DNA of 64,000 nt from Clostridiales bacterium (GCA_015055515.1 SVIC01000003.1:15435-79434), one strand, 5' to 3'; counted from the stretch's first letter, positions 14,279 to 37,242 are shown. A program made the numbers and translations. Notes: generated by a model not told the origin, from the letters alone.

Positions 14279-14869
14279 CTATTTCTTTTTTGTCTCTTTT
14301 AACAAATCACGGATTTCTTTTAACAATTCTTCTTGTGTTGGATTAAGTAGTTTTTGCTCTGCTTCCAACTTTGCTTTCTCTTCAGCTGCTACCTTTGCCT
14401 TTTCGTCCGCAATACGCTTCTGCTCTGCCTCAAACTCTGCCCATACTTCCTTGTATGGTCTTCCTTCTTCTTTTGCCTTTTGTCTACAAGCCTTCTTCTG
14501 TGCTCTTACTTCTTTCTTAGATTGAGCCTCAACAAATTCACCTAGTTCTTTGAATTTCTGTCTAGAAGATACAACAATCTTAACCATAATAAATACAGAT
14601 AGAGCAATAATGAAGAAATCAATAACATATTGCAAGAAACTACCATATTTCCACAACAACTCTGTTCCATCTTCTCCAACCCTTAATACAAGACTAAGCT
14701 CTGATACACTAGCAGAACCAGTAAGAGCTGTAATAAGTGGCATAATTATATCATTAACAAGACTTGACACAATCTTGTTGAACGCAGTAGCAATAATCAT
14801 ACCTACAGCCAGGTCAAATACATTACCTCTAGTAATGAACGCCTTAAACTCTTTGAAAAACTTTCTCAT
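14279..14869 (-). CDS. mscL: Large-conductance mechanosensitive channel MscL with a long K/E/A-rich C-terminal extension
   Basis: The N-terminal 130 aa are canonical MscL (FKAFITRGNVFDLAVGMIIATAFNKIVSSLVNDIIMPLI). About 60 extra C-terminal residues follow (EAEQKRIADEKAKVAAEEKAKLEAEQK...). Confidence 0.9.
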   Translation of the reverse strand: MRKFFKEFKAFITRGNVFDLAVGMIIATAFNKIVSSLVNDIIMPLITALTGSASVSELSLVLRVGEDGTELLWKYGSFLQYVIDFFIIALSVFIMVKIVVSSRQKFKELGEFVEAQSKKEVRAQKKACRQKAKEEGRPYKEVWAEFEAEQKRIADEKAKVAAEEKAKLEAEQKLLNPTQEELLKEIRDLLKETKKK

Positions 14870-14929: not shown

Positions 14930-15010
14930 TAATATTAGTCGATATTTATATTAAAGAAAAACCTTAATCAACTTATATTCGTTCACTCCAACAGAATAAA
15001 AATCTCTCTG

Positions 15011-15182
15011 CAAACTAGCGTTCGTTAAGGTGGGGGTAATTAAACAACAAAAAATCACTCGTAAAGAGTGACCATTTTGGTAGGGATGAGTGGACTCATC
15101 TCTACCAACTTATTAACCTTATGAGCCCACTCAACAAAAAATGACCTTACGGTCATTGTTTTGGTAGGGATGAGTGGACTCG
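15011..15182 (-). repeat. Copy 1 of a 172-bp direct repeat (period 282 bp) made of the tRNA-Ile trailer plus the tRNA-Ile 3' end
   Basis: It is identical to 15293..15464 except at 15012/15294, 15039/15321 and 15064/15346. It contains two copies of the 23-mer ttttggtagggatgagtggactc (15075..15097 and 15159..15181) and three small hairpins. Confidence 0.95.
15078..15107. other. 30-nt near-perfect palindrome formed by the tRNA-Ile 3' end and its inverted complement (copy 1)
   Basis: The sequence TGGTAGGGATGAGT-GG-ACTCATCTCTACCA has 13 to 14 pairs including one G-T. One arm equals the acceptor 3' strand plus CCA of tRNA-Ile. Confidence 0.85.
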
Positions 15183-15233
15183 CCCCGTTTGTCGGGCAGG
15201 GTCCCCGACTACAAGCCGACCCCCACACTTATA
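15159..15233 (-). pseudogene. tRNA-Ile 3'-part relic in which 5 nt of the T arm are replaced by a 33-nt GC-rich segment
   Basis: The - strand reads ATAAGtGTGGGGGTCGG-[33 nt, 15183..15215]-CGAGTCCACTCATCCCTACCA, against the intact ATAAGGTGGGGGTCGG-TGGTT-CGAGTCCACTCATCCCTACCA. There is no D arm or 5' acceptor strand upstream. Confidence 0.75.
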
Positions 15234-15359
15234 TTTTTCTTGTCAGAAAAATGAAGGCACAGTTCCACTCTGATACAATCTTTTAGATTGTACGAACTAG
15301 CGTTCGTTAAGGTGGGGGTATTTAAACAACAAAAAATCACTCGTAGAGAGTGACCATTT

Positions 15360-15389
15360 TGGTAGGGATGAGTGGACTCATCTCTACCA
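15360..15389. other. 30-nt tRNA-3'-end palindrome (copy 2)
   Basis: The sequence is identical to 15078..15107. Confidence 0.85.
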
Positions 15390-15415
15390 ACTTATTAACC
15401 TTATGAGCCCACTCA

Positions 15416-15439
15416 ACAAAAAATGACCTTACGGTCATT
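15416..15439 (-). terminator. Terminator-like hairpin immediately 3' of tRNA-Ile (duplicated at 15134..15157)
   Basis: After the CCA, the - strand reads aaaac-AATGACC-GTAA-GGTCATT-TTTT. This is a 7-bp stem with a GNRA loop and a short T-run. Confidence 0.45.
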
Positions 15440-15443
15440 GTTT

Positions 15444-15520
15444 TGGTAGGGATGAGTGGACTCGAACCACCGACCCCCACCTTATCAGAGTGGTGCTCTA
15501 ACCGGCTGAGCTACATCCCT
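15444..15520 (-). tRNA. tRNA-Ile (anticodon GAU), CCA encoded
   Basis: The reverse complement is AGGGATGTAGCTCAGCCGGTTAGAGCACCACTCTGATAAGGTGGGGGTCGGTGGTTCGAGTCCACTCATCCCTACCA. It folds by hand into a full cloverleaf: 7-bp acceptor stem, GCTC/GAGC D stem, CCACT/GGTGG anticodon stem, CTGATAA loop and a GGTGG-TTCGAGT-CCACT T arm. Confidence 0.93.
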
Positions 15521-15557
15521 ATATGCTAAAATTAAAGAGTTTAGCCTCATCTTGTGG

Positions 15558-15645
15558 GACCCACCTTATATTTTCCTAAAGGAAAATGGCGTTCGCTTCG
15601 CTCGGCTCCAGAGTGGTGCTCTAACCGGCTTAAGTTTCTATCCCT
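15558..15645 (-). pseudogene. tRNA-Ile-derived relic (5' two-thirds) with a 39-nt insertion inside the anticodon
   Basis: The - strand reads AGGGATAGAAACTTAAGCCGGTTAGAGCACCACTCTG-[39 nt, 15570..15608]-ATAAGGTGGGTC. It has a degenerate acceptor/D region and no T arm. The same ATAT 5' flank precedes it as precedes the intact gene. Confidence 0.8.
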
Positions 15646-15685
15646 ATATTCATGTTTTACCGACTTTATCATCTGTCAATTAAAT

Positions 15686-15762
15686 TGGTGGAGATAAAGA
15701 GATTCGAACTCTTGACCCCCTGCTTGCAAGGCAGGTGCTCTAGCCAGCTGAGCTATACCCCC
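15686..15762 (-). tRNA. tRNA-Ala (anticodon UGC), CCA encoded
   Basis: The reverse complement is GGGGGTATAGCTCAGCTGGCTAGAGCACCTGCCTTGCAAGCAGGGGGTCAAGAGTTCGAATCTCTTTATCTCCACCA. The G3:U70 identity pair is present, the anticodon loop is CTTGCAA, and all four stems pair. Confidence 0.95.
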
Positions 15763-15792: not shown

Positions 15793-15821
15793 ATATTAAC
15801 ATTTATTAATAGCGTTGTCAA
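15793..15821 (-). promoter_or_regulatory. Sigma-A promoter of the tRNA-Ala/tRNA-Ile unit (TTGACA-17-TAATAT)
   Basis: The - strand has TTGACA at 15816..15821, a 17-nt spacer and TAATAT at 15793..15798, about 30 nt upstream of the tRNA-Ala 5' end. Confidence 0.65.
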
Positions 15822-25476: not shown

Positions 25477-28400
25477 ATGGAGAAAAATATGATTAACACT
25501 AACATCAAGAAAACAACAGGTAAAAATATTATTGCAATATCGCTAAGTATAATACTTGCATTTGTATTATCGCACATAATATTTAGCACAAAAACTCTGG
25601 CAGAGAATAGCACCTACATGCCAGACTTTATTGTAGCAACAACCAATATAAGAGAAACAAACAACTATCAAAACAACGCCGTAGATATAATATACGAAGA
25701 GAACTCTGCGGGATCTTTCGTTATGTGGGCGAACGAGTATTATAACCTAAGAGACAATACTCTTAGCCAAGTACCTAACTACAAGCAAGTTATTAGCGTT
25801 GATGGAGATACAAATGTTGCTTCAATAAGTGACTACTACACCTATGATGCAGGAACGGGAAAATTTACTGGCTTGCTTGAACTTCCAGAGGCTAATAAGT
25901 GGTATAGATACGATGATAATGGCAAGCTAAGCCCAATAGGTGCTCGCCTATCAAAAGACAATCTTACTAGTGCCATTTCAATGGAAGATAGCAGAGTAGA
26001 TAGCAAAGATTCTGATGTTAGAAAAATAATTATAGATGGAAAAGATGTATATATACAAGTAGGAGAAGAAAACAAAATTTACTCAAAAGACTACTATTAT
26101 GGATATAATTATAAGTCTTTCAAATCAGAGTATAGTTATAAACCAATTACGCCATCTGATAGTGCGGAAATATCCTACACATATATCTCCGATCTAACAA
26201 CCGATCCTATATCAACAAGTGAGCACAAGTATACTTATATTTCAAATATATTTGAGAAGCATACAGACACAAGTGGCAAATTCGCATATTACAATAACTC
26301 TTGGATGAAGGTTGAATTATGTAATGCTGATGGCATAATCACCAATACAACTGATGACACATACGTAATATTAGAAAAAGACGGACAACTACCTAAGATA
26401 TGGGTGTCTGGATCAACATATTATTATAAAGATACAAATGGCGATAAAAAACAACTTGAGAGCCAACCCGAATTCTATACATATTCTATTCAAAACGGCT
26501 TATATTGCATATCCGGAACAGAATATCTATTACTAGAAAATGAGAATATAGATAGATTTGATGGAACTAAATTAACCCTAACTGGTAATGTCGAGCTAGA
26601 ACTAGATCAACTATATACCAGAGTATACATTAACGAACCATATCTAAAAATAGGCGCTAACACAGAAAAAACTGTAGAATTCGTAAAATTAGACAATACC
26701 GACCCTGCAAATATAAATTTCATATCTGGTAGCATATCGATTAACAAGCACTTATTCAGCATTTCCTATGACAATGCTAATATAATAAACTATAATGGTG
26801 TATGGCAAATAATAGAATATTGTCGTGCAGATGGAGGAAAATTATCCAACACCACAGAAAAAACTAATTATGTAATATTAGAAAAAGATAATAACAATAC
26901 ATCAGTATGGGGTGAATTGAACTCCAACAAGTATTATTACAAAGATGGTGCAAACACAAAAGAACGAACTACCAATGCCACTAACAATGCCCTTCCAACA
27001 TTATATGGCTATAAATTAAACAGTGGATTATATAGTCACAAAGACTACGAATATATTCCGCTAAAAGATGCCGTAATAACAAATATTAGTTACGATGAAA
27101 ACACATTAAAAGAAATAAAGGTTACAACTAATACTGGTAGAGAGCTAACAATCAACAACCTTTCAGATAACCTTTATACAAACAACTATTATTATGAGAT
27201 CTACAAAGCCGTATATGGCGAAGATAAGAACACAATCTTAGATTATGAATTATACAATTACGAATTAAAAGCAAGCGACAACACAAAAGGAAACTTCGAT
27301 AGTTATCAAAGCTTTATAAGTACATATTTTGCAGAAGACAACCTAGATGAATTATACTTCTTGGGCACAGACGGGGCTTATCACGAACTATTCAACACCG
27401 TATACGCTAATAGTGCTAAAGAAGTAATAACTTCTACCACTAGCGATATTGTACTAGACAACTACAAAGTACAAAGAGATCTATACAACTCTGATATTGC
27501 AACTACAGATAATCAAAATGTAGAGAATATATATCTTAGTTTTGGCGATATATACTACCCTAACATAAACGACAACAGCAAAAATGCATTTAATATCATT
27601 ATCACAGAATTGTCTGTTAATATGACATTGACTAATAGTTATTACAACGAGATACCGGTAATAATTAATGAGCCAATTAGACAAGAAAATATCAACTTAT
27701 CTAATGATGTAACCAAGCAAAATTGTTTCTGGTTCCAATATCTAGACCTTCAAAATCTAAGAACATATTCGGGATCAAACCTATCTGACACCAGAATAAT
27801 AGAACATTCTGCCGGAGAATACCAAATTGAAATAACATACAATACTTACAATATCGAGACAGGTATCAGTTCTACATCACAGAATTTCTCTTATTCGTTA
27901 ATTGTAGATGAGACAAGCAACAAAGACAGTTATCCTATTATAAATAATACTGAATATGTAGAAAAAGATAACAACTACCCTATATATACATATAACTTCC
28001 AAAGCATGAACAAGCCAGAGATAATGTTCGATGCTAGCGAATACTCGATGCAATATTCATATAACTACGATGAGTATAATACAGATTACAATTCTGCATT
28101 GAACATATTCAAAAGAGACACTGTTACAAAAGACACATTAGTAACATATGCTACTGCCACTGGAACTGAGAACACAGAGCAGAATATAAAATATTATCAA
28201 GAACATTCAATATTTACTTGGGTAGAAAGCGGATACATCAATAATATCGAAGTAAACAGAACACATTCTAGAACAAAAATACTAGCAAATGCCACTATTA
28301 TAGAAAAACCAACAAATGGTAAAATCCAAATAGTTGGCGCCACCAATGTTGATATTGACAAGGTTGCGATATTAGAATATACATATTATATCGATTCCCC

Positions 28401-31400
28401 TTCAAATGCATTCGTGAACGACAATTATTCTTCGCTGCAATTCGATAAGAAAATTGTCTCAATTGTTGGATACAGCACAGCAGAGAATACTTACTACATT
28501 TGGCACTATATAACAGATATTGAAAAATCAAAAGATGATTCTTTTGTAAGTTATAACAAAGTAATTAATGAATATATAACAAAGATATCCAAGCCAGTAA
28601 ATTATAGGTCATACGACAATATGTACAAGTTCTATAACTTAGATAAAACGCCTGCTACAGATTATGCAAAATTAGAAAAAGGTTTTGCTAGCAGAAAATA
28701 CGACTACTATTTCGATTATGAGCAGTTGGATTTCGATTATATCATAACTGATGAATTTTCCAACTTAGGTGAATACGTATTCGAAATGGGCTATGTAACA
28801 AGCACAAAATACTCACCTAGCAAAACACCTTATAACACATACAATCTGCACAATATCTCTAAAGACGTTATAGCAATTGAACCAAACTTCGATCCAAAAG
28901 GACTTGTTAATCTGCAACAAGGCACACTAAATGGAGGATATAATATATCTATATTTGGTGTAAAATCATATTTCAATAAGTACATGTCTGCGACATCAAC
29001 TACTGTACAGACCGAATTAATGCTAGAGTCAGAAAATATTTATAGTGACATGACCGCCACTATTAATTCAATTAATAACACTAATAAAATTGAACAAATG
29101 CCACAGGCAGGAACAACAATAAATAATGCGGGAACATCTATAGGAAAAGTACCTAATACCAACCAAGTACCAATTTACTTCGAATACTTATGTTCTTATG
29201 CATACACTGGAAACATTTCGAATAGCAGAATTTACAGATACCCTAGCTTCGTATACAACGATGATAATACATGCACAATCAAAAATACTAATAATTATAT
29301 CACCAGCTATTTTGATAAGAACTCAAGACCTGAAGATGATGGATATTATGAGATTATAATAGAGTATTCATATAAAAATAACGATACTAATTACGAGTCC
29401 GACAAGCAATATCAAGTATTTGCATTCGTTATAGACAACTCCTCTCCAGAGGTGGCATACGATACACTAAAAGAAACAATTGACAGCAAAGAATATAAAT
29501 ACTTAGATTGGCAAAGCATGGCATCCAACAATATAACAAACTCTATTGTTAGAGCTAATTGGAATACGCCTAATTACTTCCAATACGATATAATTCCAAC
29601 CATTACAAAGGAAAATTACTCTGGCGTATCAAGCATCTATGGATCAAGTGATAGCACTTCAACAATTAATGCTATAAGCGGAACTAATGAAGAAGTATTC
29701 ATTCATATTAATGAGACAGAGAAGATATCTCTTACAGGCAATGCAGATATTGTAAAAAATAATGGAGTAATACAATATACCGATAAAGCTGGACTAATTG
29801 CAGAAAAGTATTATATAACAAAGTATGACAATGCACATTTGACCAAGGTACCTGTATTCAAGCTAATAGTAGATCAGAACGCAAATCTTGACACAATACT
29901 AGAACAAAGCAAGAAAGAGTATTATCAAACAAGAATATTGAATAATACACTATATCCATCAGATATGTACAACGCTAAGATTGTGGATATTATTAACACT
30001 ATTATCCAGAGTGGAACATCAATTAGTTTTGAATTTATAGGATACAAATGGCAATTCATGATATACCCTACTTCGACACATCTAGATGAAATTAATAAAA
30101 TACAATCTAGTGGTAGCATATGGGGAAGCGGAAACTACTTATTAAAACTAACATATGGTAGCAGTGCAACATCTAACATAACTAGTAGGTTTGTTATAGA
30201 TACACTACCTATATCAAATGTCGTAGCTAGAAGTGTTATGTTATATAACAGCGGAAATATAATATCCAAAGGTTTTAATGGAAATTGCAACTTTGCAAGC
30301 GGATCGAACAACTTAATAAATGAGCCATTTACATTAATATACGATTCTAAAACAAGTGGAGCTGATATCACTACTTATTATAGAAAGATTTCATTCAAAT
30401 CCACTACAATAGATAAAGATTATGACAGACTGTATCTAGCAGACACCACCGTAGGTGTACTTACAGATATAGAGTTAACTGCAAGCGAAGATGCTCGATG
30501 GAAAAAATATACATATAATTATAACTACGGAGAGGCAGGATCAACAGTTCCTACAGGAAACGAATTCAATCCTGATTCTACATCACTATATGTATTCTAC
30601 TTAGAAGATCGTGCGGGCAACAAAGCTAATTATTATGTATTGTATGACAACTCTACACCTAAATACAGTGTGGAGTTAAGTGAAAAAGATAAAACATCAA
30701 ACAACTTCAATCTATACAATATTATCACAGACAATACAACACTATTCTGGGGAAATTATAAGGCAATTGAAGTATCTGGAAGCCTAGATATAGGTTATAT
30801 TATTAATAGAGCAAATCATATCAACTATCAACCTACAGCAATTGAAATGGCACTGAAAGATATCGTTGCAAAAAGCACTAATAACACTTATCTAGGAGCA
30901 AGCTACAAAACTTTTAGAAAAGATAATAACAAGTGGGAAGAAATAAGCAATGCAGACTATTCATCGGGAGATAAATGCTTTATATTAATACCTTTATCTA
31001 ACACAACATTCAACTATTCTCAAACAAACGCCGATGATAAGACAGAGAAGCAATTCATATTCAATATGCTTACTGGCAAAATTAACCAAACCATACTATC
31101 CCCTACAGCATTAGATTTAGCAATTGCAAATGGCTTAGTGGCAAACAACGCAACAGATACTGAAAAAGAGGCAGCAAGAAACCTAATAAAACGTAGCCCT
31201 CAAGGCACATATGGATTCTATGGCGAGATTCAATATGATTACGTAATAGAAGATATTCTAGGAAATAGCGATGGTGGCTTCTTATGGATGAACAACGACT
31301 TGACAGTAGCAATGGCATGGATGACTAATGCAAAAACTGACAAAGAATTGAGCAACAATGATGATCTGGGCGTATTTGCAGCAACAGATCTATCTAGCGC

Positions 31401-34400
31401 ATACGCAACTAGCCAAGTATACTTCACTTATTTAACTAGTATAGATAGTTCTATACCTACTGCAGAATTCGATTATAAATATTATCCATTTGAAGATTTA
31501 AGTAAAACCGGATTCTATAACAATTATAAAATAAAAAATATTTCATACAATAGTTCGAAAAGCTGTTATGAGATAATATTTGTAGATGAAAAGGACAACC
31601 AAATTACACATAACTACAGTGCTTTGTCTACTAACAACTATAATGCTGATGGAGATGCAGTAAATGAACCAAATAGTACTTATCCATTTACTATTTCCCC
31701 TACAACAGCATCTAACAATGGTTGGAACAAAATAACAGCAACTTCTAATTACAATGTTGCAGGAGACCCAAATAGAAAGGTGTCCAATCTAATTAACGAT
31801 ATATCTGATACATCTATTAAATATTCTGGAGCTGGTCTATATGTATTTAGAAGAGTATATGTAGATTATGTAGATGCTACACAATATAGCAATGGCATAA
31901 CAATTGTCAATAAAGCAAAAGCTGAAGAACTGGATAAAGATAGTGCTGTAAGATACTATGTATATTATATTGACAGAAATTCTATAATAGATGTAACTAA
32001 CATGATAGGCTCTGATATAACACTAACATATGGTAACTATATTCATGCTGTAACAAACGACAATGAGAATAACTTAAGCATTGATAATAACTATGCCAAT
32101 GTATATGGCTATGACAGCATATCAATAGATGCTGTACAGCAATCCAGCACATCAAATAGTGTTCAGACTTATGTATCTAGCGATAGTACCAACAAGATAT
32201 ATATCTCTCTAGATATGCCTATGGATAAATACAATCAGCCTAGAGCAGTAGCATTTGCAAAAGAAACTGATTTTGCATTGTCTATGACCGAAGCTGATAA
32301 AGCAAATACTGAATCTATGCTACGTAAGTTCTACAACCTATCTGAGAATCAGAATATTACTGAAGCACAAATAAATGAATTTATTAACAACTTCCTTGGC
32401 AAATACATGTTCGATAATTACAACGGTTTTGCAAACGGAACATATAATAAAAATTTCCAATTGAACGTAACCTTAAAAAATGGAAACAATGCGATCATGG
32501 AAAATAATATTATCACAGAGAATAATTCCATATACTTCAAACAGTATTCTGCAACAACATTACAGACCTCAACTGTTTCATCTATTGATAGACAAAACTT
32601 TACTAATTATTTAAGAAATGATATTACTTCAATCATCCTTAATGATCCTTCCGGCGATGGTTACAACTTTGCTATATCAGACAGCTCATTATTTACAAGA
32701 AATAACGTTATAATATCTGAAGCAAACTCATTGAATATTAACAACATTAATATCGCACCTATGAAGCCTACAGGATCTGTAATAGGTAAAAACCCAAATA
32801 CTAAATATCTAACTGATACAGAGTCTGAGAACTATGTACAAAACTTGTTCCAAAATGATCAGTTAAAGAGTATGAAATATTATGTTGCTTCGGCAGATAG
32901 CATATACCCTAATTCTAACAACAGTACCTTAATATTCTTAATAGATAATGATATATTAACTAACCTTACAGCAACAACAAACCCTTACAATATTGTAATT
33001 AATAAATTTAGTGAAAATGGTACTAAAAGCACAATATTTACTAGTAGCCTAACATACGAGATAGTTAATGGCGAAGTTGTTCCAAAATTCACTGCCAATA
33101 ATGCAAATGCCTTCATTAGTAATGCAACGATAGATAATAAGGCTACAAAATGGGCAATAGTAGTATTTGACAAGACTGCAAAGAATGAACAATATAAGAA
33201 TATATTATCAAATGCTGATGACAATGCAACATACCAGATTACTATCCAGCACTATGGTAAAAAAGAAGATTATATAGACAAAGATGTCAAACAGAACATA
33301 GCATTCAGCGATACTCAAGAGATAACAATTGATCACATAAAACCAATAATTAACCAAATAAAATTAATGGAGCAAGACAAATTTATCTCAAAGAATTTTG
33401 CAAAAATAAAATCATCAATTGAAGCTCAGAATAACAATCTTGTATATAATGATATACAATCATACTACAACGACTTAATTAGTAGAATTTCTAGTGGTAC
33501 AATCACCAAGATTGGAGCACAAAAATATTTGAAAAATGTATATGATATATACCTTGAATGCTACAAGAACTTAATGGGTAAAGAAGATAATTTCTTAAAA
33601 ACATTTACCGATCAATTCGGAGAAAAAGTAAATTACTGGAATAACTATTATTTCACAGTAGATGATAACTTCGAATTCATAAGTGGACTTCCTAGCCTTA
33701 ACAATGAAGATGGTAACGGAATGGGACTGGATTGTTATAACAATATTTATTTTAGAAAAATATCAGATCTGACTAAATACAAATATTCAATAACAACAGA
33801 TGACTTTACATCAACTACTAGTTCAGATATTACTGGTCACAGCATATTCTATGATAACATTGCAGAGACCTATGACAGCAGCAATAACCCAACTATAGAA
33901 TCTGACACAACCTTCTATAAAATAAGCCACACAAACAACAAAAATTATAAATTATTTGGTGAATCTATCAAAGATCCTGGTTATTATGAAATAATAGAAC
34001 GTGATGAGGCTGGAAACTATAGCGTATACCTAGTACACTATAATAATAACGGTAACGAATATAAATACACTTATTCTAAGTTATTTAATGACAAAACAGA
34101 AGATGAAATCAACCTAAGCTCAACAAAAGTTAATGAGATTCTAGGTACTGGGCTGGCATTGTCTAATGCGAATACGGATAATGTCGCCGATATGTTCCGT
34201 GCAGAAATAGCCTATACATTCACGACTATAAAAGAAGATGGCACTGTTGATAGAGTATACAACAATACATCCTCACCTATTTATATTTATTCTACAATGA
34301 TGAACAACGCTGTAGATATATATTATGATCGTAAGAATGACAATATGATAGACATAGACTCTGATTTATTGCAGTCTATCACTGGAATTGTAGCACTTGA

Positions 34401-37242
34401 AAACACAAGTTTAGGTAATGAGATAATCAACAAAGCATTATCAAGAATAAAAGAAATACTGATGTATATATCTAATACTTACACTGATATAGCTCTTGAC
34501 TTTGAATACAGTATTAATATATATGACAAGGTATATGGTAATTATGTTATATCTTACAAATGCCCAGGAAAGCAGTTAGAGTTGGATATAAACAAAGGCG
34601 ATTATTCATTCAATGTTACAATACCTAACAACGAAGTAGGAAGAGCTACCAAGATTGTAAGCTTTAAGGCACGATACTCCAATAGTTCTGCCCCTATACA
34701 GCGTGACAAAAATGGCAACGAGATTCCTGACACTTCTAATAACAAACTTCCATTAAATTCTACTACTTATACATTTAACTATGCAGATGGATCTCAAACT
34801 CAAGGATCTGCTATCATTATTGAGACTATAGACAATTTCGGCAGAAACAAAATATATTATATTACTAACAAAAATGATAGGTTATATTATACCGAAATGA
34901 ACACTATAAAACACTATAATGATACTTATACAGATGATGAGATCAAGATAGTATATAATAGTGATCTATATAACGCAGTAATCATAGAGCAAGTAGATGA
35001 ATCTAATCAACTAACTATTACAACAAGATTAAATGCAAATAATAGTTATCCTATAGCAAATAATGATTATTTGAGATACGATGTCACAGATCTACCTACT
35101 TGGACTAGAAAAGATGACAAAGGAAATATAATATATACAGTATCTAGCGACAAATTATTAAATGAGACTGGTTATATTACTCTAACAATTAAGCAAAACA
35201 TAGATAAAAAATCGAAATTTATTATTTTATTCTTGGACAAGAGCACAATAACAAGTGAAACAACCATAAATGAGTTATACAAAAGTTATGTATCTTTCGT
35301 TAGCAAGCCTGAAGGAATATTATATAACGATGATACGAAGGTAACAATGTATACTTATCTTCCAGAAATCAAATTAATTAATAATAGCAATAGAGTAATT
35401 ACTACTTCTAAAACTATAAAAGATCAAAAAGAACTACTACTATTCATAGAACAATTAAAATACAGATTAGAATATAGTCAAGAGATATTGTTTAATCCAA
35501 GAATATCTATTGCAAAGAACAATATTCAATATGCTGTCATTCCTGAAGAATTAAGTGAAAACGTAAGCCTTGGCAATGGTACATACAGGCTTGTAATATC
35601 TAATGACCTAGGATATTATAGTGAAATAAATTTCAAGATAGAAATCCAAGAAAATATAGCAGACTATGCATTATATATTAATAATAATTTGATGCAAAAA
35701 TCTACATATATTAATACAGATGACGGTAAAATAGTGTATCACTATTATACTACCCTATTGGATGCAACAACTAAGCCGAAGATTAATATAATAACAAATT
35801 CTAACAACAACATTGCTTGCACAAAAATAGAAGATGCTGTAGTAGAAAACAGCAATGATTTGTATGAAACATATAAGGTACACAAGAAAGATAATCCTGA
35901 TGTAATAATAGAATATTTCACTATATATTATTTAGAGAAAGACAAATACAACTTTGTCGATGATAACGGTGGACAAATTGTAAAGATTAATAATAAGAAA
36001 TCATTCAATACCGCACAAGATATAGCATCTGTAAGCAGTTCTAAGAATGACAACAAACTATATATAATCTTTGCCAATACCATAAACGGAAACAACGATC
36101 ATACACAAGGCAATACTATATCACTAACCTATTATTACAATAATGCTTCGACTAAGACAGAAGAAATAAAAATAAATAAGTTAAACAAGTTCATAGAAGA
36201 TGGCAAAACTTATTATTACTATGAAATATCTGAAACTGGTTTACATAAATTTGTAGTAAGTGACCTTGCTGGACAAAGATTAAAATCTGGCAACAGAGAT
36301 TACTTCAATATAACTTTGATTAATAGCATAATATATGAAATCAAAGTTGATGAAGATAAATATATTCAAAATCTACAAAATTACATAACTAACAACGAAG
36401 TTGTTATAAGATTGCTAGATCAAGTAGGCAACACTAACCTATATGATATTATATATGATCAAATAAGAATAACTAGAAATGGTGAATTGTTAACAGACAT
36501 AAAACAAACAACTAAAAATGTATATACTTTCACTACTCCTGGATCATATGAAATACAAGTAAGTGCTAGTGATTCAAGCAATCCTAAGCCTATAACTCAT
36601 TCTATATACTTTACTATAGTAAATCCGAACATAGCATACAGTTCGTATACAATATCATCTGCAAAAGGCTACACAATTAAATCGGTAACAAAGAGATTAA
36701 ATAACACAGAGAATTCCAAGCCTACACCTATAAACGCTTTCAACAATTCTAATTCGTTACTAATTAGTTGTGCCGAGCATGGTGCTGGATATTATACCAT
36801 AACGGTTACAAAATATCTAGAAAGCATTAAGTCTGAAAAAGAATTTTCATTCAATGTATGGCTAAATGATAGAACTGAATCTAGTATAATTATAGCATCT
36901 ATTCCATTCGGAACAGAGACAACAGATACTATTACTATACGATATAACGCATCAAATATATATAATAATATAGGTGAATCTTTCATTAAGATAAATGGAA
37001 ATATTATAGACACTATTACAAAAGATAGCACCTCTGAAACTTCTACCTATAATATAACTGAAAAAGGTGTATATTGGGTAACAATAGAATCTGCTAATGG
37101 TCAAGTTATAGCTAGCTATAAATTAACCAAGAATGAACCACTAAATGCAACTGCCCAGATAATAATAATTGTTGTTGTTGTAGCAGTAATTGCTCTAGTA
37201 GTTATATTCATAATCTTGAGAAAGAAGACTAAGTTCAGATAA
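25477..37242 (+). CDS. Giant (3,921 aa) N/Y/T/I/D-rich cell-surface protein with an N-terminal signal peptide and a C-terminal TM anchor; function unknown
   Basis: A single uninterrupted 11,766-nt ORF. The second ATG at 25489 has the better RBS (GGAG 6 nt upstream). The signal peptide is IIAISLSIILAFVLSHIIFSTKTLA/EN. The C-terminus is AQIIIIVVVVAVIALVVIFIIL-RKKTKFR. Recurrent beta-sandwich-like module ends are present (G-x-Y-x-I/V ... D-x-AGN). I recognised no enzyme, LPXTG, SLH or YD/RHS motif. Confidence 0.85.
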   Translation: MEKNMINTNIKKTTGKNIIAISLSIILAFVLSHIIFSTKTLAENSTYMPDFIVATTNIRETNNYQNNAVDIIYEENSAGSFVMWANEYYNLRDNTLSQVPNYKQVISVDGDTNVASISDYYTYDAGTGKFTGLLELPEANKWYRYDDNGKLSPIGARLSKDNLTSAISMEDSRVDSKDSDVRKIIIDGKDVYIQVGEENKIYSKDYYYGYNYKSFKSEYSYKPITPSDSAEISYTYISDLTTDPISTSEHKYTYISNIFEKHTDTSGKFAYYNNSWMKVELCNADGIITNTTDDTYVILEKDGQLPKIWVSGSTYYYKDTNGDKKQLESQPEFYTYSIQNGLYCISGTEYLLLENENIDRFDGTKLTLTGNVELELDQLYTRVYINEPYLKIGANTEKTVEFVKLDNTDPANINFISGSISINKHLFSISYDNANIINYNGVWQIIEYCRADGGKLSNTTEKTNYVILEKDNNNTSVWGELNSNKYYYKDGANTKERTTNATNNALPTLYGYKLNSGLYSHKDYEYIPLKDAVITNISYDENTLKEIKVTTNTGRELTINNLSDNLYTNNYYYEIYKAVYGEDKNTILDYELYNYELKASDNTKGNFDSYQSFISTYFAEDNLDELYFLGTDGAYHELFNTVYANSAKEVITSTTSDIVLDNYKVQRDLYNSDIATTDNQNVENIYLSFGDIYYPNINDNSKNAFNIIITELSVNMTLTNSYYNEIPVIINEPIRQENINLSNDVTKQNCFWFQYLDLQNLRTYSGSNLSDTRIIEHSAGEYQIEITYNTYNIETGISSTSQNFSYSLIVDETSNKDSYPIINNTEYVEKDNNYPIYTYNFQSMNKPEIMFDASEYSMQYSYNYDEYNTDYNSALNIFKRDTVTKDTLVTYATATGTENTEQNIKYYQEHSIFTWVESGYINNIEVNRTHSRTKILANATIIEKPTNGKIQIVGATNVDIDKVAILEYTYYIDSPSNAFVNDNYSSLQFDKKIVSIVGYSTAENTYYIWHYITDIEKSKDDSFVSYNKVINEYITKISKPVNYRSYDNMYKFYNLDKTPATDYAKLEKGFASRKYDYYFDYEQLDFDYIITDEFSNLGEYVFEMGYVTSTKYSPSKTPYNTYNLHNISKDVIAIEPNFDPKGLVNLQQGTLNGGYNISIFGVKSYFNKYMSATSTTVQTELMLESENIYSDMTATINSINNTNKIEQMPQAGTTINNAGTSIGKVPNTNQVPIYFEYLCSYAYTGNISNSRIYRYPSFVYNDDNTCTIKNTNNYITSYFDKNSRPEDDGYYEIIIEYSYKNNDTNYESDKQYQVFAFVIDNSSPEVAYDTLKETIDSKEYKYLDWQSMASNNITNSIVRANWNTPNYFQYDIIPTITKENYSGVSSIYGSSDSTSTINAISGTNEEVFIHINETEKISLTGNADIVKNNGVIQYTDKAGLIAEKYYITKYDNAHLTKVPVFKLIVDQNANLDTILEQSKKEYYQTRILNNTLYPSDMYNAKIVDIINTIIQSGTSISFEFIGYKWQFMIYPTSTHLDEINKIQSSGSIWGSGNYLLKLTYGSSATSNITSRFVIDTLPISNVVARSVMLYNSGNIISKGFNGNCNFASGSNNLINEPFTLIYDSKTSGADITTYYRKISFKSTTIDKDYDRLYLADTTVGVLTDIELTASEDARWKKYTYNYNYGEAGSTVPTGNEFNPDSTSLYVFYLEDRAGNKANYYVLYDNSTPKYSVELSEKDKTSNNFNLYNIITDNTTLFWGNYKAIEVSGSLDIGYIINRANHINYQPTAIEMALKDIVAKSTNNTYLGASYKTFRKDNNKWEEISNADYSSGDKCFILIPLSNTTFNYSQTNADDKTEKQFIFNMLTGKINQTILSPTALDLAIANGLVANNATDTEKEAARNLIKRSPQGTYGFYGEIQYDYVIEDILGNSDGGFLWMNNDLTVAMAWMTNAKTDKELSNNDDLGVFAATDLSSAYATSQVYFTYLTSIDSSIPTAEFDYKYYPFEDLSKTGFYNNYKIKNISYNSSKSCYEIIFVDEKDNQITHNYSALSTNNYNADGDAVNEPNSTYPFTISPTTASNNGWNKITATSNYNVAGDPNRKVSNLINDISDTSIKYSGAGLYVFRRVYVDYVDATQYSNGITIVNKAKAEELDKDSAVRYYVYYIDRNSIIDVTNMIGSDITLTYGNYIHAVTNDNENNLSIDNNYANVYGYDSISIDAVQQSSTSNSVQTYVSSDSTNKIYISLDMPMDKYNQPRAVAFAKETDFALSMTEADKANTESMLRKFYNLSENQNITEAQINEFINNFLGKYMFDNYNGFANGTYNKNFQLNVTLKNGNNAIMENNIITENNSIYFKQYSATTLQTSTVSSIDRQNFTNYLRNDITSIILNDPSGDGYNFAISDSSLFTRNNVIISEANSLNINNINIAPMKPTGSVIGKNPNTKYLTDTESENYVQNLFQNDQLKSMKYYVASADSIYPNSNNSTLIFLIDNDILTNLTATTNPYNIVINKFSENGTKSTIFTSSLTYEIVNGEVVPKFTANNANAFISNATIDNKATKWAIVVFDKTAKNEQYKNILSNADDNATYQITIQHYGKKEDYIDKDVKQNIAFSDTQEITIDHIKPIINQIKLMEQDKFISKNFAKIKSSIEAQNNNLVYNDIQSYYNDLISRISSGTITKIGAQKYLKNVYDIYLECYKNLMGKEDNFLKTFTDQFGEKVNYWNNYYFTVDDNFEFISGLPSLNNEDGNGMGLDCYNNIYFRKISDLTKYKYSITTDDFTSTTSSDITGHSIFYDNIAETYDSSNNPTIESDTTFYKISHTNNKNYKLFGESIKDPGYYEIIERDEAGNYSVYLVHYNNNGNEYKYTYSKLFNDKTEDEINLSSTKVNEILGTGLALSNANTDNVADMFRAEIAYTFTTIKEDGTVDRVYNNTSSPIYIYSTMMNNAVDIYYDRKNDNMIDIDSDLLQSITGIVALENTSLGNEIINKALSRIKEILMYISNTYTDIALDFEYSINIYDKVYGNYVISYKCPGKQLELDINKGDYSFNVTIPNNEVGRATKIVSFKARYSNSSAPIQRDKNGNEIPDTSNNKLPLNSTTYTFNYADGSQTQGSAIIIETIDNFGRNKIYYITNKNDRLYYTEMNTIKHYNDTYTDDEIKIVYNSDLYNAVIIEQVDESNQLTITTRLNANNSYPIANNDYLRYDVTDLPTWTRKDDKGNIIYTVSSDKLLNETGYITLTIKQNIDKKSKFIILFLDKSTITSETTINELYKSYVSFVSKPEGILYNDDTKVTMYTYLPEIKLINNSNRVITTSKTIKDQKELLLFIEQLKYRLEYSQEILFNPRISIAKNNIQYAVIPEELSENVSLGNGTYRLVISNDLGYYSEINFKIEIQENIADYALYINNNLMQKSTYINTDDGKIVYHYYTTLLDATTKPKINIITNSNNNIACTKIEDAVVENSNDLYETYKVHKKDNPDVIIEYFTIYYLEKDKYNFVDDNGGQIVKINNKKSFNTAQDIASVSSSKNDNKLYIIFANTINGNNDHTQGNTISLTYYYNNASTKTEEIKINKLNKFIEDGKTYYYYEISETGLHKFVVSDLAGQRLKSGNRDYFNITLINSIIYEIKVDEDKYIQNLQNYITNNEVVIRLLDQVGNTNLYDIIYDQIRITRNGELLTDIKQTTKNVYTFTTPGSYEIQVSASDSSNPKPITHSIYFTIVNPNIAYSSYTISSAKGYTIKSVTKRLNNTENSKPTPINAFNNSNSLLISCAEHGAGYYTITVTKYLESIKSEKEFSFNVWLNDRTESSIIIASIPFGTETTDTITIRYNASNIYNNIGESFIKINGNIIDTITKDSTSETSTYNITEKGVYWVTIESANGQVIASYKLTKNEPLNATAQIIIIVVVVAVIALVVIFIILRKKTKFR

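What the first reader, a model, noticed from the sequence alone, without database searches (positions are those of the whole stretch)
15011..15464. Near-identical 172-bp tandem repeat duplicates the tRNA-Ile 3' end and trailer, while the tRNA body of one copy is replaced
Segments 15011..15182 and 15293..15464 (period 282 bp) differ at only 2-3 positions. Each contains two copies of the 23-mer TTTTGGTAGGGATGAGTGGACTC, so there are four in total: 15075, 15159, 15357 and 15441. This 23-mer is the complement of the tRNA-Ile T-stem 3' strand, acceptor 3' strand and CCA plus 4 nt of flank. Each segment also contains three small hairpins flanked by A and T runs. The conservation pattern is the reverse of what simple duplication and decay predicts. 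The non-coding trailer is about 99% identical, whereas the region where the second tRNA body should be (15183..15292) is almost unrelated to the intact gene. No integrase or mobile-element gene lies nearby, and the copies are too close together to be att sites flanking an island. Possible explanations are fossil att scars from repeated integration and excision at tRNA-Ile, gene conversion that maintains a functional trailer RNA, or an undescribed tRNA-derived repeat or structured-RNA family.
Basis: seen in the sequence. Interest (0 to 1): 0.7.

Follow-up and report, generated by a model that had tools for sequence, protein, structure and literature searches.

The report
Conserved tRNA-Ile-derived tandem element
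The near-identical 172-bp segments are real and belong to a 282-bp tandem unit built from rearranged pieces of the neighbouring tRNA-Ile gene; related uncultured gut Clostridia carry the same unit just after the same tRNA, so it is a conserved but unnamed element of unknown function, not random scar tissue.

Summary
Segments 15011-15182 and 15293-15464 differ at 3 positions, and four copies of the tRNA-Ile 3' 20-mer are present. Two independent metagenome contigs carry the same sequence.

The interpretation needs correcting. The sequence between the repeats is not a replaced tRNA body. It is a roughly 160-nt hairpin-rich core at 15162-15321 on the minus strand, made of tRNA-Ile pieces in both orientations. 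These include the exact reverse complement of the anticodon arm, split by two hairpins.

The whole composite recurs directly downstream of the tRNA-Ala/tRNA-Ile operon in at least four other MAG species. Copy number runs from one to three or more. One relative lacks it, and one strain has a truncated copy.

The core is more conserved between species than the flanking protein genes (88-93% against 67-75% nucleotide identity). Its stems are kept while its loops diverge.

I found no integrase in the window or in any relative's flank. There was no Rfam match apart from the two tRNAs, and no phage, plasmid or viral-contig match to the element.

Best reading (about 0.45): a lineage-specific tRNA-Ile-linked structured element under selection, amplified and homogenised by unequal recombination. 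Its function is unknown.

Main rival (about 0.25): cargo-less remnants of integrative elements at the canonical tRNA crossover points.

The parts
15793..15821 (-). Promoter-like site of the tRNA-Ala/tRNA-Ile operon (TTGACA-17-TAATAT with an upstream TG).
   Evidence: The region is collinear and conserved in relatives.
15686..15762 (-). tRNA-Ala(TGC), the first gene of the operon.
15560..15645 (-). Pseudo-tRNA-Ile 5' half. It comprises acceptor 5' strand, D arm and anticodon-stem 5' strand (15609-15645), then a 39-nt insertion in the anticodon loop made of module X GAGCCGAGCGAAGCGAACGCC (15588-15608) and AT-rich hairpin hp3 (15570-15587), then ATAAGGTGGG (15560-15569).
   Evidence: (D3). The same arrangement occurs in L007 and L014, where the 5' half is a perfect 35-nt copy.
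15444..15520 (-). Intact tRNA-Ile(GAT). Its last 20 nt (15444-15463) are copy 1 of the repeated 20-mer.
15293..15464 (-). Proximal 172-bp repeat segment. It runs: 20-mer, terminator 1 (15418-15439), module 2 (TTGAGTGGGCTCATAAGG at 15399-15416, near-palindrome with the second 20-mer at 15360-15389), terminator 2 (15331-15355), the reverse complement of the anticodon-arm 3' part ACCCCCACCTTA (15308-15319), and the start of hairpin hp1.
15162..15321 (-). Core element. It runs: ACCCCCACCTTA (15308-15319), hp1 (15292-15307), hp2 (15274-15292), TATCAGAGTGGA, which is the reverse complement of the anticodon loop and stem 5' strand (15264-15275), hp3 (15233-15252), ATAAGTGTGGGGGTCGG, which is the tRNA anticodon-loop 3' part to the variable loop (15216-15232), GC-rich hp4 (15190-15212), and the third 20-mer (15162-15181).
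   Evidence: It is conserved in L007, L009, L014/L016 and L020/L021, and partly in L017 and L004.
15011..15182 (-). Distal 172-bp repeat segment. It holds the third 20-mer, terminator 1 (15136-15157), module 2 with the fourth 20-mer (15078-15107 and 15117-15134), terminator 2 (15049-15073), ACCCCCACCTTA (15026-15037) and half of hp1.
14969..15012 (-). Decayed remainder of a second core. Only words survive, such as TGGAGTGAAC (14981-14990) and AATATAAGTTG (14969-14979). The array ends here, about 100 nt upstream of the mscL start.
   Evidence: The nhmmer alignment extends to 14984.

Best explanation
The two 172-bp segments are the overlapping part of a head-to-tail duplication of a 282-bp unit. 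The unit never contained a tRNA body. It consists of the last 20 nt of tRNA-Ile, terminator 1, a hairpin that sequesters a second copy of the 20-mer, terminator 2, and a roughly 160-nt core.

The core is a rearranged derivative of tRNA-Ile. It holds the exact reverse complement of the 21-nt anticodon arm, split at TA by two hairpins. After that come an AT-rich hairpin, the sense anticodon-loop-to-variable-loop segment, a GC-rich hairpin that replaces the T-arm 5' side, and the T-loop-to-CCA 20-mer.

This composite is a lineage-specific element of an uncultured Clostridia ('Christensenella'-labelled) clade. It always lies directly downstream of the tRNA-Ala/tRNA-Ile operon, on the tRNA strand, in one to three or more tandem copies.

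Shown: the element is real, conserved, tied to this locus, and variable in copy number.

Inferred: copies within a genome stay about 99% identical because tandem units are recently duplicated or homogenised by unequal crossing-over and gene conversion. Distal copies escape this process and decay.

Inferred: the core is under purifying selection as a folded nucleic acid. It is most likely RNA made by read-through of the tRNA operon terminators. The predicted fold is a four-way junction closed by a 12-bp helix, followed by hp4 and a tRNA-like ACCA 3' end, with each unit closed by its own terminator.

Speculative: it acts on tRNA-Ile or on the operon transcript, since its invariant unpaired segments are complementary to the tRNA-Ile anticodon arm.
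For: Architecture.

The same composite lies next to tRNA-Ile in L007 (198-bp unit, at least 1.5 copies), L009/L003/L020/L021 (211-297-bp units, at least 3 copies plus a partial one), L014/L016 (exactly one copy inside a 632-kb contig), L017 (truncated) and L004 (degenerate).

A single collinear 770-nt match at 79% identity runs from the promoter to the element between the window and L014.

The core is 87.7% and 92.7% identical (ungapped) to the L014 and L007 cores. The adjacent ABC-transporter gene is 72.8% and 74.9% identical, and the cardiolipin-synthase gene 66.9%. Other intergenic DNA aligns at 42-51% identity over the full alignment length.

The consensus fold has 92.8% of cells paired, against 38-51% when partners are slid. 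Six pairs changed on both sides, against 0-1 in the slid controls. hp1 and hp2 have entirely different sequences in the L009 clade but remain perfect hairpins at the same positions. hp4 shows a G-C to C-G swap in L014.

Folding z-score is -4.9 on the tRNA strand.

Between L017 and L009 (about 96% genome identity) the changes fall in loops, not stems.

The window's distal unit has decayed to scattered words, so unconstrained copies do erode.

Profile hits occur only at tRNA-Ile loci in the 307 kb held.
Against: I found no promoter inside the unit. The core sits behind one or two strong terminator-like hairpins, so any RNA would depend on read-through (and the sequence itself).

The element is absent from a relative (L013). 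One strain at about 96% identity to a multi-copy strain has only a truncated copy (L017). It is therefore dispensable.

Stems are almost purely Watson-Crick, with one G-U type in about 180 pairs. The antisense strand also folds well, at z = -3.5. This fits DNA palindromes as well as it fits RNA.

The long closing helix shows no compensatory change. Its 5' strand tracks the real tRNA rather than the element's own 3' strand.

Only four complete, phylogenetically close sequences are available, so the covariation statistics are weak. There are no expression data.
Confidence: 0.45

Rival explanations
1. The element is the cargo-less remains, or a non-autonomous miniature derivative, of integrative elements that used tRNA-Ile as attB. 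Each unit would be an attL/attR pair or an attP-sized insert bounded by displaced tRNA fragments. Units would accumulate by repeated integration, be trimmed by deletion, and perhaps be mobilised in trans by an integrase encoded elsewhere.
For: The tRNA fragments start or end exactly at the known crossover subsites. The 20-mer begins inside the T loop. The sense segment ATAAGG... begins in the anticodon loop. The pseudo 5' half ends in the anticodon loop. Islander counts 2083 anticodon-centred and 1836 T-stem-region sites, and both 3' (3760) and 5' (159) displaced fragments (PMC4383910).

Stacked and degenerate elements separated only by partial tRNAs are described for tycheposons (bioRxiv 10.1101/2020.12.28.424599).

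In L014 the single unit is cleanly bounded by direct 19-20-nt repeats of the tRNA end. Unit length of 198-297 bp is similar to a typical attP, which I state from my own knowledge. Presence, absence and copy number vary between relatives. Perfect DNA palindromes could be protein-binding sites.
Against: There is no integrase, excisionase or transposase in the 64-kb window or in up to 10 kb of flank in six related genomes. All neighbours are housekeeping genes in conserved order.

No viral contig carries the 20-mer, hp4, module X, or either half of this tRNA-Ile. Phage and plasmid BLAST returns only tRNA matches.

Most arrays end in partial units rather than at a tRNA fragment. In L004 the terminator shared with the element-free L013 comes first, not last.

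Antisense copies of the anticodon arm are not explained by integration. Element similarity follows host relatedness.
Confidence: 0.25
2. The element is neutral debris. An old tandem duplication of tRNA-Ile decayed and was reshuffled by replication slippage and template switching at the tRNA's own quasi-palindromes. Concerted evolution then keeps copies similar, and the element has no function.
For: There are many sense-plus-antisense pairs of tRNA pieces, and perfect palindromes with hardly any G-U pairs. This is what templated palindrome correction produces.

Array ends differ between genomes, with microhomology at one junction: GTGGAA in L003 against L017.

Distal units decay. The element is dispensable in L013 and L017.
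Against: Segments with no counterpart in the tRNA gene cannot be refreshed from the tRNA. These are hp4, module X and the invariant AATATAAG. They are nevertheless nearly invariant between species whose flanking genes are only 67-75% identical at the nucleotide level. Neutral intergenic DNA between the same genomes is unalignable. The same order of seven or more modules is kept in four species.
Confidence: 0.15
3. The duplication is an assembly artefact: a collapsed or falsely duplicated repeat.
For: Short-read assemblies often break here. Contig ends fall in the repeats in L001, L002, L015, L018, L019, L021 and L009/L003, and there are N gaps in L007 and L020.
Against: Three independent assemblies give an identical two-copy structure, including the 3 copy-specific differences. 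The same tandem architecture appears in other species.
Confidence: 0.02

Closest known systems
Displaced tRNA-gene fragments and tandem island arrays at tDNA integration sites (Williams 2002; Islander, PMC4383910; tycheposon 'partial tRNAs', bioRxiv 10.1101/2020.12.28.424599)
   Same: Direct-orientation copies of the tRNA 3' end lie downstream of the intact gene. Fragment boundaries fall in the T loop and the anticodon loop. A 5' fragment lies upstream. Copies stack in tandem, and presence or absence varies between relatives.
   Different: The interval between fragments is 198-297 bp with no gene at all, whereas islands are kilobases long and carry an integrase. No mobile-element homologue was found. 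The interval is a conserved, hairpin-rich sequence that itself contains antisense tRNA pieces. Its similarity follows host phylogeny.
Functional tRNA trailers such as the E. coli 3'ETS-leuZ sRNA sponge (Lalaouna et al. 2015; cited from my own knowledge, not checked here)
   Same: A conserved non-coding sequence lies directly 3' of a tRNA gene on the same strand, and could act by base-pairing.
   Different: 3'ETS-leuZ lies before the operon terminator and is released by processing. Here the conserved core lies after one or two terminators, is repeated, and is made of tRNA-derived sequence. No transcript evidence is available.
tRNA-like structures and tRNA-sensing leaders (T-box, tmRNA tRNA-like domain, YrlA)
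   Same: It contains a tRNA 3' end with discriminator A and CCA. An unpaired AUC-A segment is complementary to the tRNA-Ile anticodon loop. UGGU motifs are complementary to ACCA.
   Different: No Rfam family matches, even at E up to 10. ARAGORN finds no tRNA or tmRNA in the element. It has no acceptor 5' strand, no T-box sequence and no regulated downstream gene, since the downstream genes differ between species.
REP/BIME- or MITE-like intergenic palindromic repeats
   Same: Clusters of short perfect palindromes lie at the 3' end of a transcription unit. A 12-bp inverted repeat (ACCCCCACCTTA / TAAGGTGGGGGT) brackets part of the core.
   Different: No dispersed copies were found in the 307 kb examined. 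The element is tied to a single locus, and the 'inverted repeats' are tRNA sequence.

Membership tests
tDNA displaced fragment / integrase island remnant | A fragment identical to part of the tRNA gene, in direct orientation, starting or ending at the anticodon-loop or T-loop/T-stem subsite. | tested here: met
   The 20-mer starts at T-loop position 4. ATAAG... starts in the anticodon loop. The pseudo 5' half ends at G34. Subsites are as listed in Islander.
tDNA displaced fragment / integrase island remnant | An integrase gene, or a recognisable remnant of one, between the tRNA gene and the fragment or adjacent to it. | tested here: not met
   The intervals are 64-282 bp without ORFs. Pfam finds no recombinase in the window or in relatives' flanks.
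tDNA displaced fragment / integrase island remnant | A matching attP in a phage, ICE or plasmid. | tested here: not met
   There were 0 hits in viral contigs for five patterns. BLAST against phages and plasmids returned only tRNA matches. ICE and IME collections were not searchable.
tRNA gene or pseudogene | A cloverleaf recognised by ARAGORN or Rfam RF00005. | tested here: not met
   Only the two intact tRNAs are found, even at E up to 10. The core lacks the acceptor 5' strand, the D arm and the T-stem 5' strand.
Any curated RNA family (Rfam 15), including T-box, tmRNA, ribozymes, ROOL, GOLLD and raiA | A covariance-model match at or near the gathering score. | tested here: not met
   The best non-tRNA hit is HPnc0260 at 41.5 bits against a threshold of 59, and it is caused by antisense-tRNA similarity.
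Conserved structured non-coding element (generic) | Conserved in several species beyond the neutral expectation, with base pairs kept through compensatory change. | tested here: met
   The caveats are that only four complete sequences exist and G-U pairs are nearly absent, so DNA-level and RNA-level structure cannot be told apart.
Conserved structured non-coding element (generic) | Transcribed as a stable RNA. | not testable with these tools
   No expression data are available. No internal promoter consensus was seen, and terminators lie upstream.
MITE / REP-type dispersed repeat | Multiple dispersed copies in the genome. | tested here: inconclusive
   No copy occurs away from tRNA-Ile in the 64-kb window or in the 307 kb held. 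Whole genomes could not be scanned.

The most novel reading that the evidence does not exclude
The element is a new class of tRNA-derived regulatory or quality-control RNA, an 'anti-tRNA'. Its invariant unpaired segments, ACCCCCACCUUA and UAUCAGAGUGGA, would pair with the two strands of the tRNA-Ile anticodon arm. The target could be an unfolded precursor, the upstream pseudo 5' half, or nuclease-cut halves. The element's own tRNA-like ACCA end would recruit tRNA-processing enzymes. This would couple tRNA-Ile maturation, repair or surveillance to read-through of the operon terminators.
Probability: 0.1. Interest if true: 0.8.

Novelty: new variant of a known kind. Interest (0 to 1): 0.5.

Why it matters
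If the element is selected, it would be an unannotated, tRNA-derived structured element specific to a poorly studied clade of gut Clostridia. It would also be a rare case in which sequence downstream of a tRNA terminator is better conserved than the neighbouring genes.

If it is instead the footprint of integrase activity, it shows that att-site arrays can persist and be conserved without any island. That matters for tools that map islands from tRNA fragments.

In practice, the locus systematically breaks metagenome assemblies. It can also mislead tRNA annotation, because it yields 5' and 3' pseudo-fragments.

Tried and rejected
Assembly artefact: rejected, because independent contigs are identical and other species show the same architecture.

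Known RNA families: the Rfam gathering and E≤10 scans found only the two tRNAs.

Tandem Repeats Finder did not report the 282-bp period, because there are only about 1.6 copies.

Phage, plasmid and viral origin: BLAST against phages and plasmids returned only tRNA hits. Five exact-pattern scans of viral contigs returned nothing.

Metagenome scans were unproductive. The hp4 pattern gave 0 hits even though JGI contigs carrying it exist, so that collection evidently lacks those short contigs. The 20-mer found only an unrelated tRNA-Ile locus without the element, the same sequence as the Bacillota MAG locus L005.

A more distant cardiolipin-synthase homologue (L022) was not syntenic.

Cis-regulator of the downstream gene: rejected. 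The downstream genes differ: mscL here, a cupin gene on the opposite strand in L007, a HAD-family gene in L014, and unknown genes in L003.

Split-tRNA idea (pseudo 5' half plus element 3' half): rejected. Both carry the same X-hp3 module rather than complementary ones, and L009 lacks the 5' half.

Hammerhead and other small ribozymes, group I/II introns, the IS200/IS605 hairpin-end idea and a MITE with a TA duplication were all considered from the sequence. None fits in size or motifs, and none had an Rfam hit.

A small ORF reading from the pseudo-half into tRNA-Ile exists only in the window and not in L007, so I judged it coincidental.

Strand assignment from G-U pairs was inconclusive.

Full report
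**1. The observation**

On the minus strand the window carries a promoter-like site (15821-15793), tRNA-Ala(TGC) at 15762-15686 and tRNA-Ile(GAT) at 15520-15444. mscL lies downstream at 14869-14279.

The repeat finder reports a 170-nt direct repeat, 15013-15182 and 15295-15464, at 99% identity and spacing 282. Identity stops abruptly on both sides.

The 23-mer sits at the four stated coordinates. Its 20-nt core, GAGTCCACTCATCCCTACCA, runs from T-loop position 4 to CCA and is not expected by chance. The two internal copies form the 3' arm of a 30-nt near-palindrome, TGGTAGAGATGAGT-CC-ACTCATCCCTACCA. Every copy of the 20-mer is followed by a terminator-like hairpin and a T run on the tRNA strand; 8 such sites were found against 1.1 expected.

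Two JGI metagenome contigs from different samples are 100% identical to the window over 1169 and 1100 nt. They span both copies and the piece between them, and both contigs end inside the 20-mer repeats. The duplication is therefore real, although its copy number could be underestimated.

**2. What lies between and around the repeats**

Reading the tRNA strand (coordinates), the 110 nt between the repeats are not foreign. Together with the end of the proximal repeat they form a core at 15321-15162. In order, the core contains:

- ACCCCCACCTTA
- hairpin hp1
- hairpin hp2
- TATCAGAGTGGA
- a short linker
- AT-rich hairpin hp3
- ATAAGTGTGGGGGTCGG
- GC-rich hairpin hp4 (GTAGTCGGGGACCCTGCCCGACA)
- the 20-mer

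The first and fourth segments together are the exact reverse complement of the 21-nt tRNA-Ile anticodon arm, CCACTCTGATAAGGTGGGGGT. They are split at TA by hp1 and hp2 (inverted repeats I2 and I3). The segment after hp3 is the sense copy of the anticodon-loop 3' part, the stem 3' strand and the variable loop. hp4 replaces the six bases TGGTTC of the T arm.

A further tRNA-Ile relic lies between tRNA-Ala and tRNA-Ile at 15645-15560. It is a 5' half followed by a 39-nt insertion in the anticodon loop (module X plus an hp3-type hairpin) and then ATAAGGTGGG.

So the repeat unit is 282 bp of trailer plus core. The apparently paradoxical pattern of a conserved trailer and a replaced body is simply a tandem duplication of that unit.

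Beyond 15013 the second core has decayed to scattered words.

**3. Relatives**

A scan of one genome per species for the 20-mer found seven loci in six MAGs labelled uncultured Clostridia, Christensenella or Bacillota. More loci came from contigs encoding homologues of the neighbouring ABC transporter and cardiolipin synthase. The same composite lies directly downstream of tRNA-Ala/tRNA-Ile, on the same strand, in:

- L007: 198-bp unit without module 2, at least 1.5 copies, then an N gap.
- L009/L003/L020/L021: units of 297 or about 211 bp, at least three copies plus a partial one.
- L014/L016: exactly one copy plus the pseudo 5' half, inside a 632-kb contig.
- L017: a single truncated copy.
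- L004: a degenerate copy.

L013, a relative with the same tRNA-Ile, has only the tRNA and a terminator. L017 and L020 share about 96% nucleotide identity, so copy number and integrity vary within a species.

Array ends fall at different points in each genome. The L003 and L017 ends differ by a segment flanked by GTGGAA.

Many public contigs terminate in this locus.

**4. Conservation and structure**

The window aligns with L014 in one collinear 770-nt match from the promoter to the element. Ungapped identities are:

| Region | Window vs L014 | Window vs L007 |
|---|---|---|
| Core element | 87.7% | 92.7% |
| ABC-transporter gene | 72.8% | 74.9% |
| Cardiolipin-synthase gene | 66.9% | not compared |

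Other intergenic DNA aligns at only 42-51% identity over the full alignment length.

hp4, module X and AATATAAG have no template in the tRNA gene, yet they are almost invariant.

RNAalifold recovers a 12-bp closing helix between the antisense and sense anticodon-arm pieces. This helix encloses hp1, hp2 and hp3, followed by hp4. On that structure 92.8% of cells pair, against 38-51% when partners are slid. Six pairs change on both sides, against 0-1 in the slid controls. In the L009 clade hp1 and hp2 have unrelated sequences but are still perfect hairpins. hp4 has a G-C to C-G swap in L014, and hp3 differs between the pseudo-half and the core of one genome while staying paired. Between L017 and L009 the changes concentrate in loops. 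The window core folds with z = -4.9 on the tRNA strand and -3.5 on the other strand.

Caveats:

- Only four complete cores were available.
- Almost no G-U pairs occur.
- The closing helix shows no compensation.
- I found no promoter inside the unit.

**5. What it is not**

It matches no Rfam family other than the two tRNAs, even at E up to 10. ARAGORN finds no tRNA or tmRNA in the core.

There is no integrase, transposase or phage gene in the 64-kb window. The window is core genome: recA, ftsK, spoIIGA/sigE, nifU/iscS, gap, fba, topA and dprA. The flanks of the related loci also lack such genes.

Phage and plasmid BLAST gives only tRNA hits. No viral contig holds the 20-mer, hp4, module X or either half of this tRNA-Ile.

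A profile of the core hits only tRNA-Ile loci in the 307 kb held.

The downstream gene differs between species, so the element is not a leader for a particular gene.

**6. Explanations**

Best (0.45): a lineage-specific, tRNA-Ile-linked structured element under purifying selection. Unequal crossing-over amplifies and homogenises it, which explains the 99% identity of the two copies and the decay of the distal one. It is most likely expressed, if at all, as a read-through extension of the tRNA operon. Its invariant unpaired segments are complementary to the tRNA-Ile anticodon arm, which suggests an interaction with tRNA-Ile or its precursors. That last step is speculation.

Main rival (0.25): cargo-less remnants or a miniature derivative of integrative elements. 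The fragment boundaries coincide with the anticodon-loop and T-loop/T-stem crossover subsites. Both 3' and 5' displaced fragments are known (Islander), and stacked or degenerate elements separated by partial tRNAs are known from tycheposons. But no integrase or attP counterpart was found, arrays mostly end in partial units, and the antisense pieces are unexplained.

Neutral debris (0.15): this fits the palindromes and the element's dispensability, but not its conservation.

Assembly artefact (0.02).

**7. Novelty and verdict**

tRNA-gene fragments next to tRNA genes are a known kind of feature. A gene-free, 200-300-bp, hairpin-rich tandem unit of this sort matched nothing in Rfam or in the papers I searched. 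It is built from both strands of the tRNA and is conserved across species more strongly than the flanking genes.

I rate it a new variant of a known kind, of moderate interest (0.5). The rating is limited by the narrow taxonomic range, the lack of expression data and the unresolved choice between an RNA-level and a DNA-level role.

Noticed in passing
window 15560-15645 (-); also L007 6024-6110 and L014 15365-15448: A pseudo-tRNA-Ile 5' half lies between tRNA-Ala and tRNA-Ile. It has a 38-40-nt insertion (GCCGAGCGAAGCGAACGCC plus an AT-rich hairpin) exactly between anticodon positions 34 and 35. The 5' half is a perfect 35-nt copy in L007 and L014 but is mutated in the window. In L007 the tRNA leader hairpin is duplicated along with it.
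   Followed up: partly
window 15651-15679 (-), the tRNA-Ala/tRNA-Ile spacer: The motif TTGACAGATGATAAAGTCGGTAAAACAT is conserved in the Ala-Ile spacer of every related locus that has one (L007, L009, L013, L014, L017, L020). It could be an internal promoter or a processing hairpin.
   Followed up: no
window 25477-37242 (+): A single 3921-aa ORF. Orthologues of 3881-3973 aa occupy the same syntenic position in L013, L014, L017 and L020. Where Pfam hits were looked up, none is on record.
   Followed up: no
window 14279-14869 (-): The MscL homologue is 196 aa, but the Pfam MscL match covers only residues 4-114. It therefore has a long C-terminal extension of unknown nature.
   Followed up: no
L001, L002, L015, L018, L019, L021 and L009/L003 contig ends; N gaps in L007 (6518-6616) and L020 (16954-17046): Public short-read assemblies of this clade systematically break or are gapped at the tRNA-Ile repeat locus. 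Copy numbers in MAGs, and possibly in this window, are therefore lower bounds.
   Followed up: partly
L005 2630-2690 (-) and L010, a Bacillota MAG: Just upstream of a tRNA-Ile with the same 3' end, the hairpin AGGGAT...ATCCCTAC copies the acceptor-stem sequences. This is another case of tRNA-end mimicry, outside the element-bearing clade.
   Followed up: no
window 15530-15478 (-): A 21-codon ORF (ATG at 15540) is preceded by the Shine-Dalgarno-like AAGGTGGG of the pseudo-half. It reads through the tRNA-Ile 5' half to the TGA in the anticodon loop. L007 has no start codon at that position, so it is probably coincidental.
   Followed up: partly
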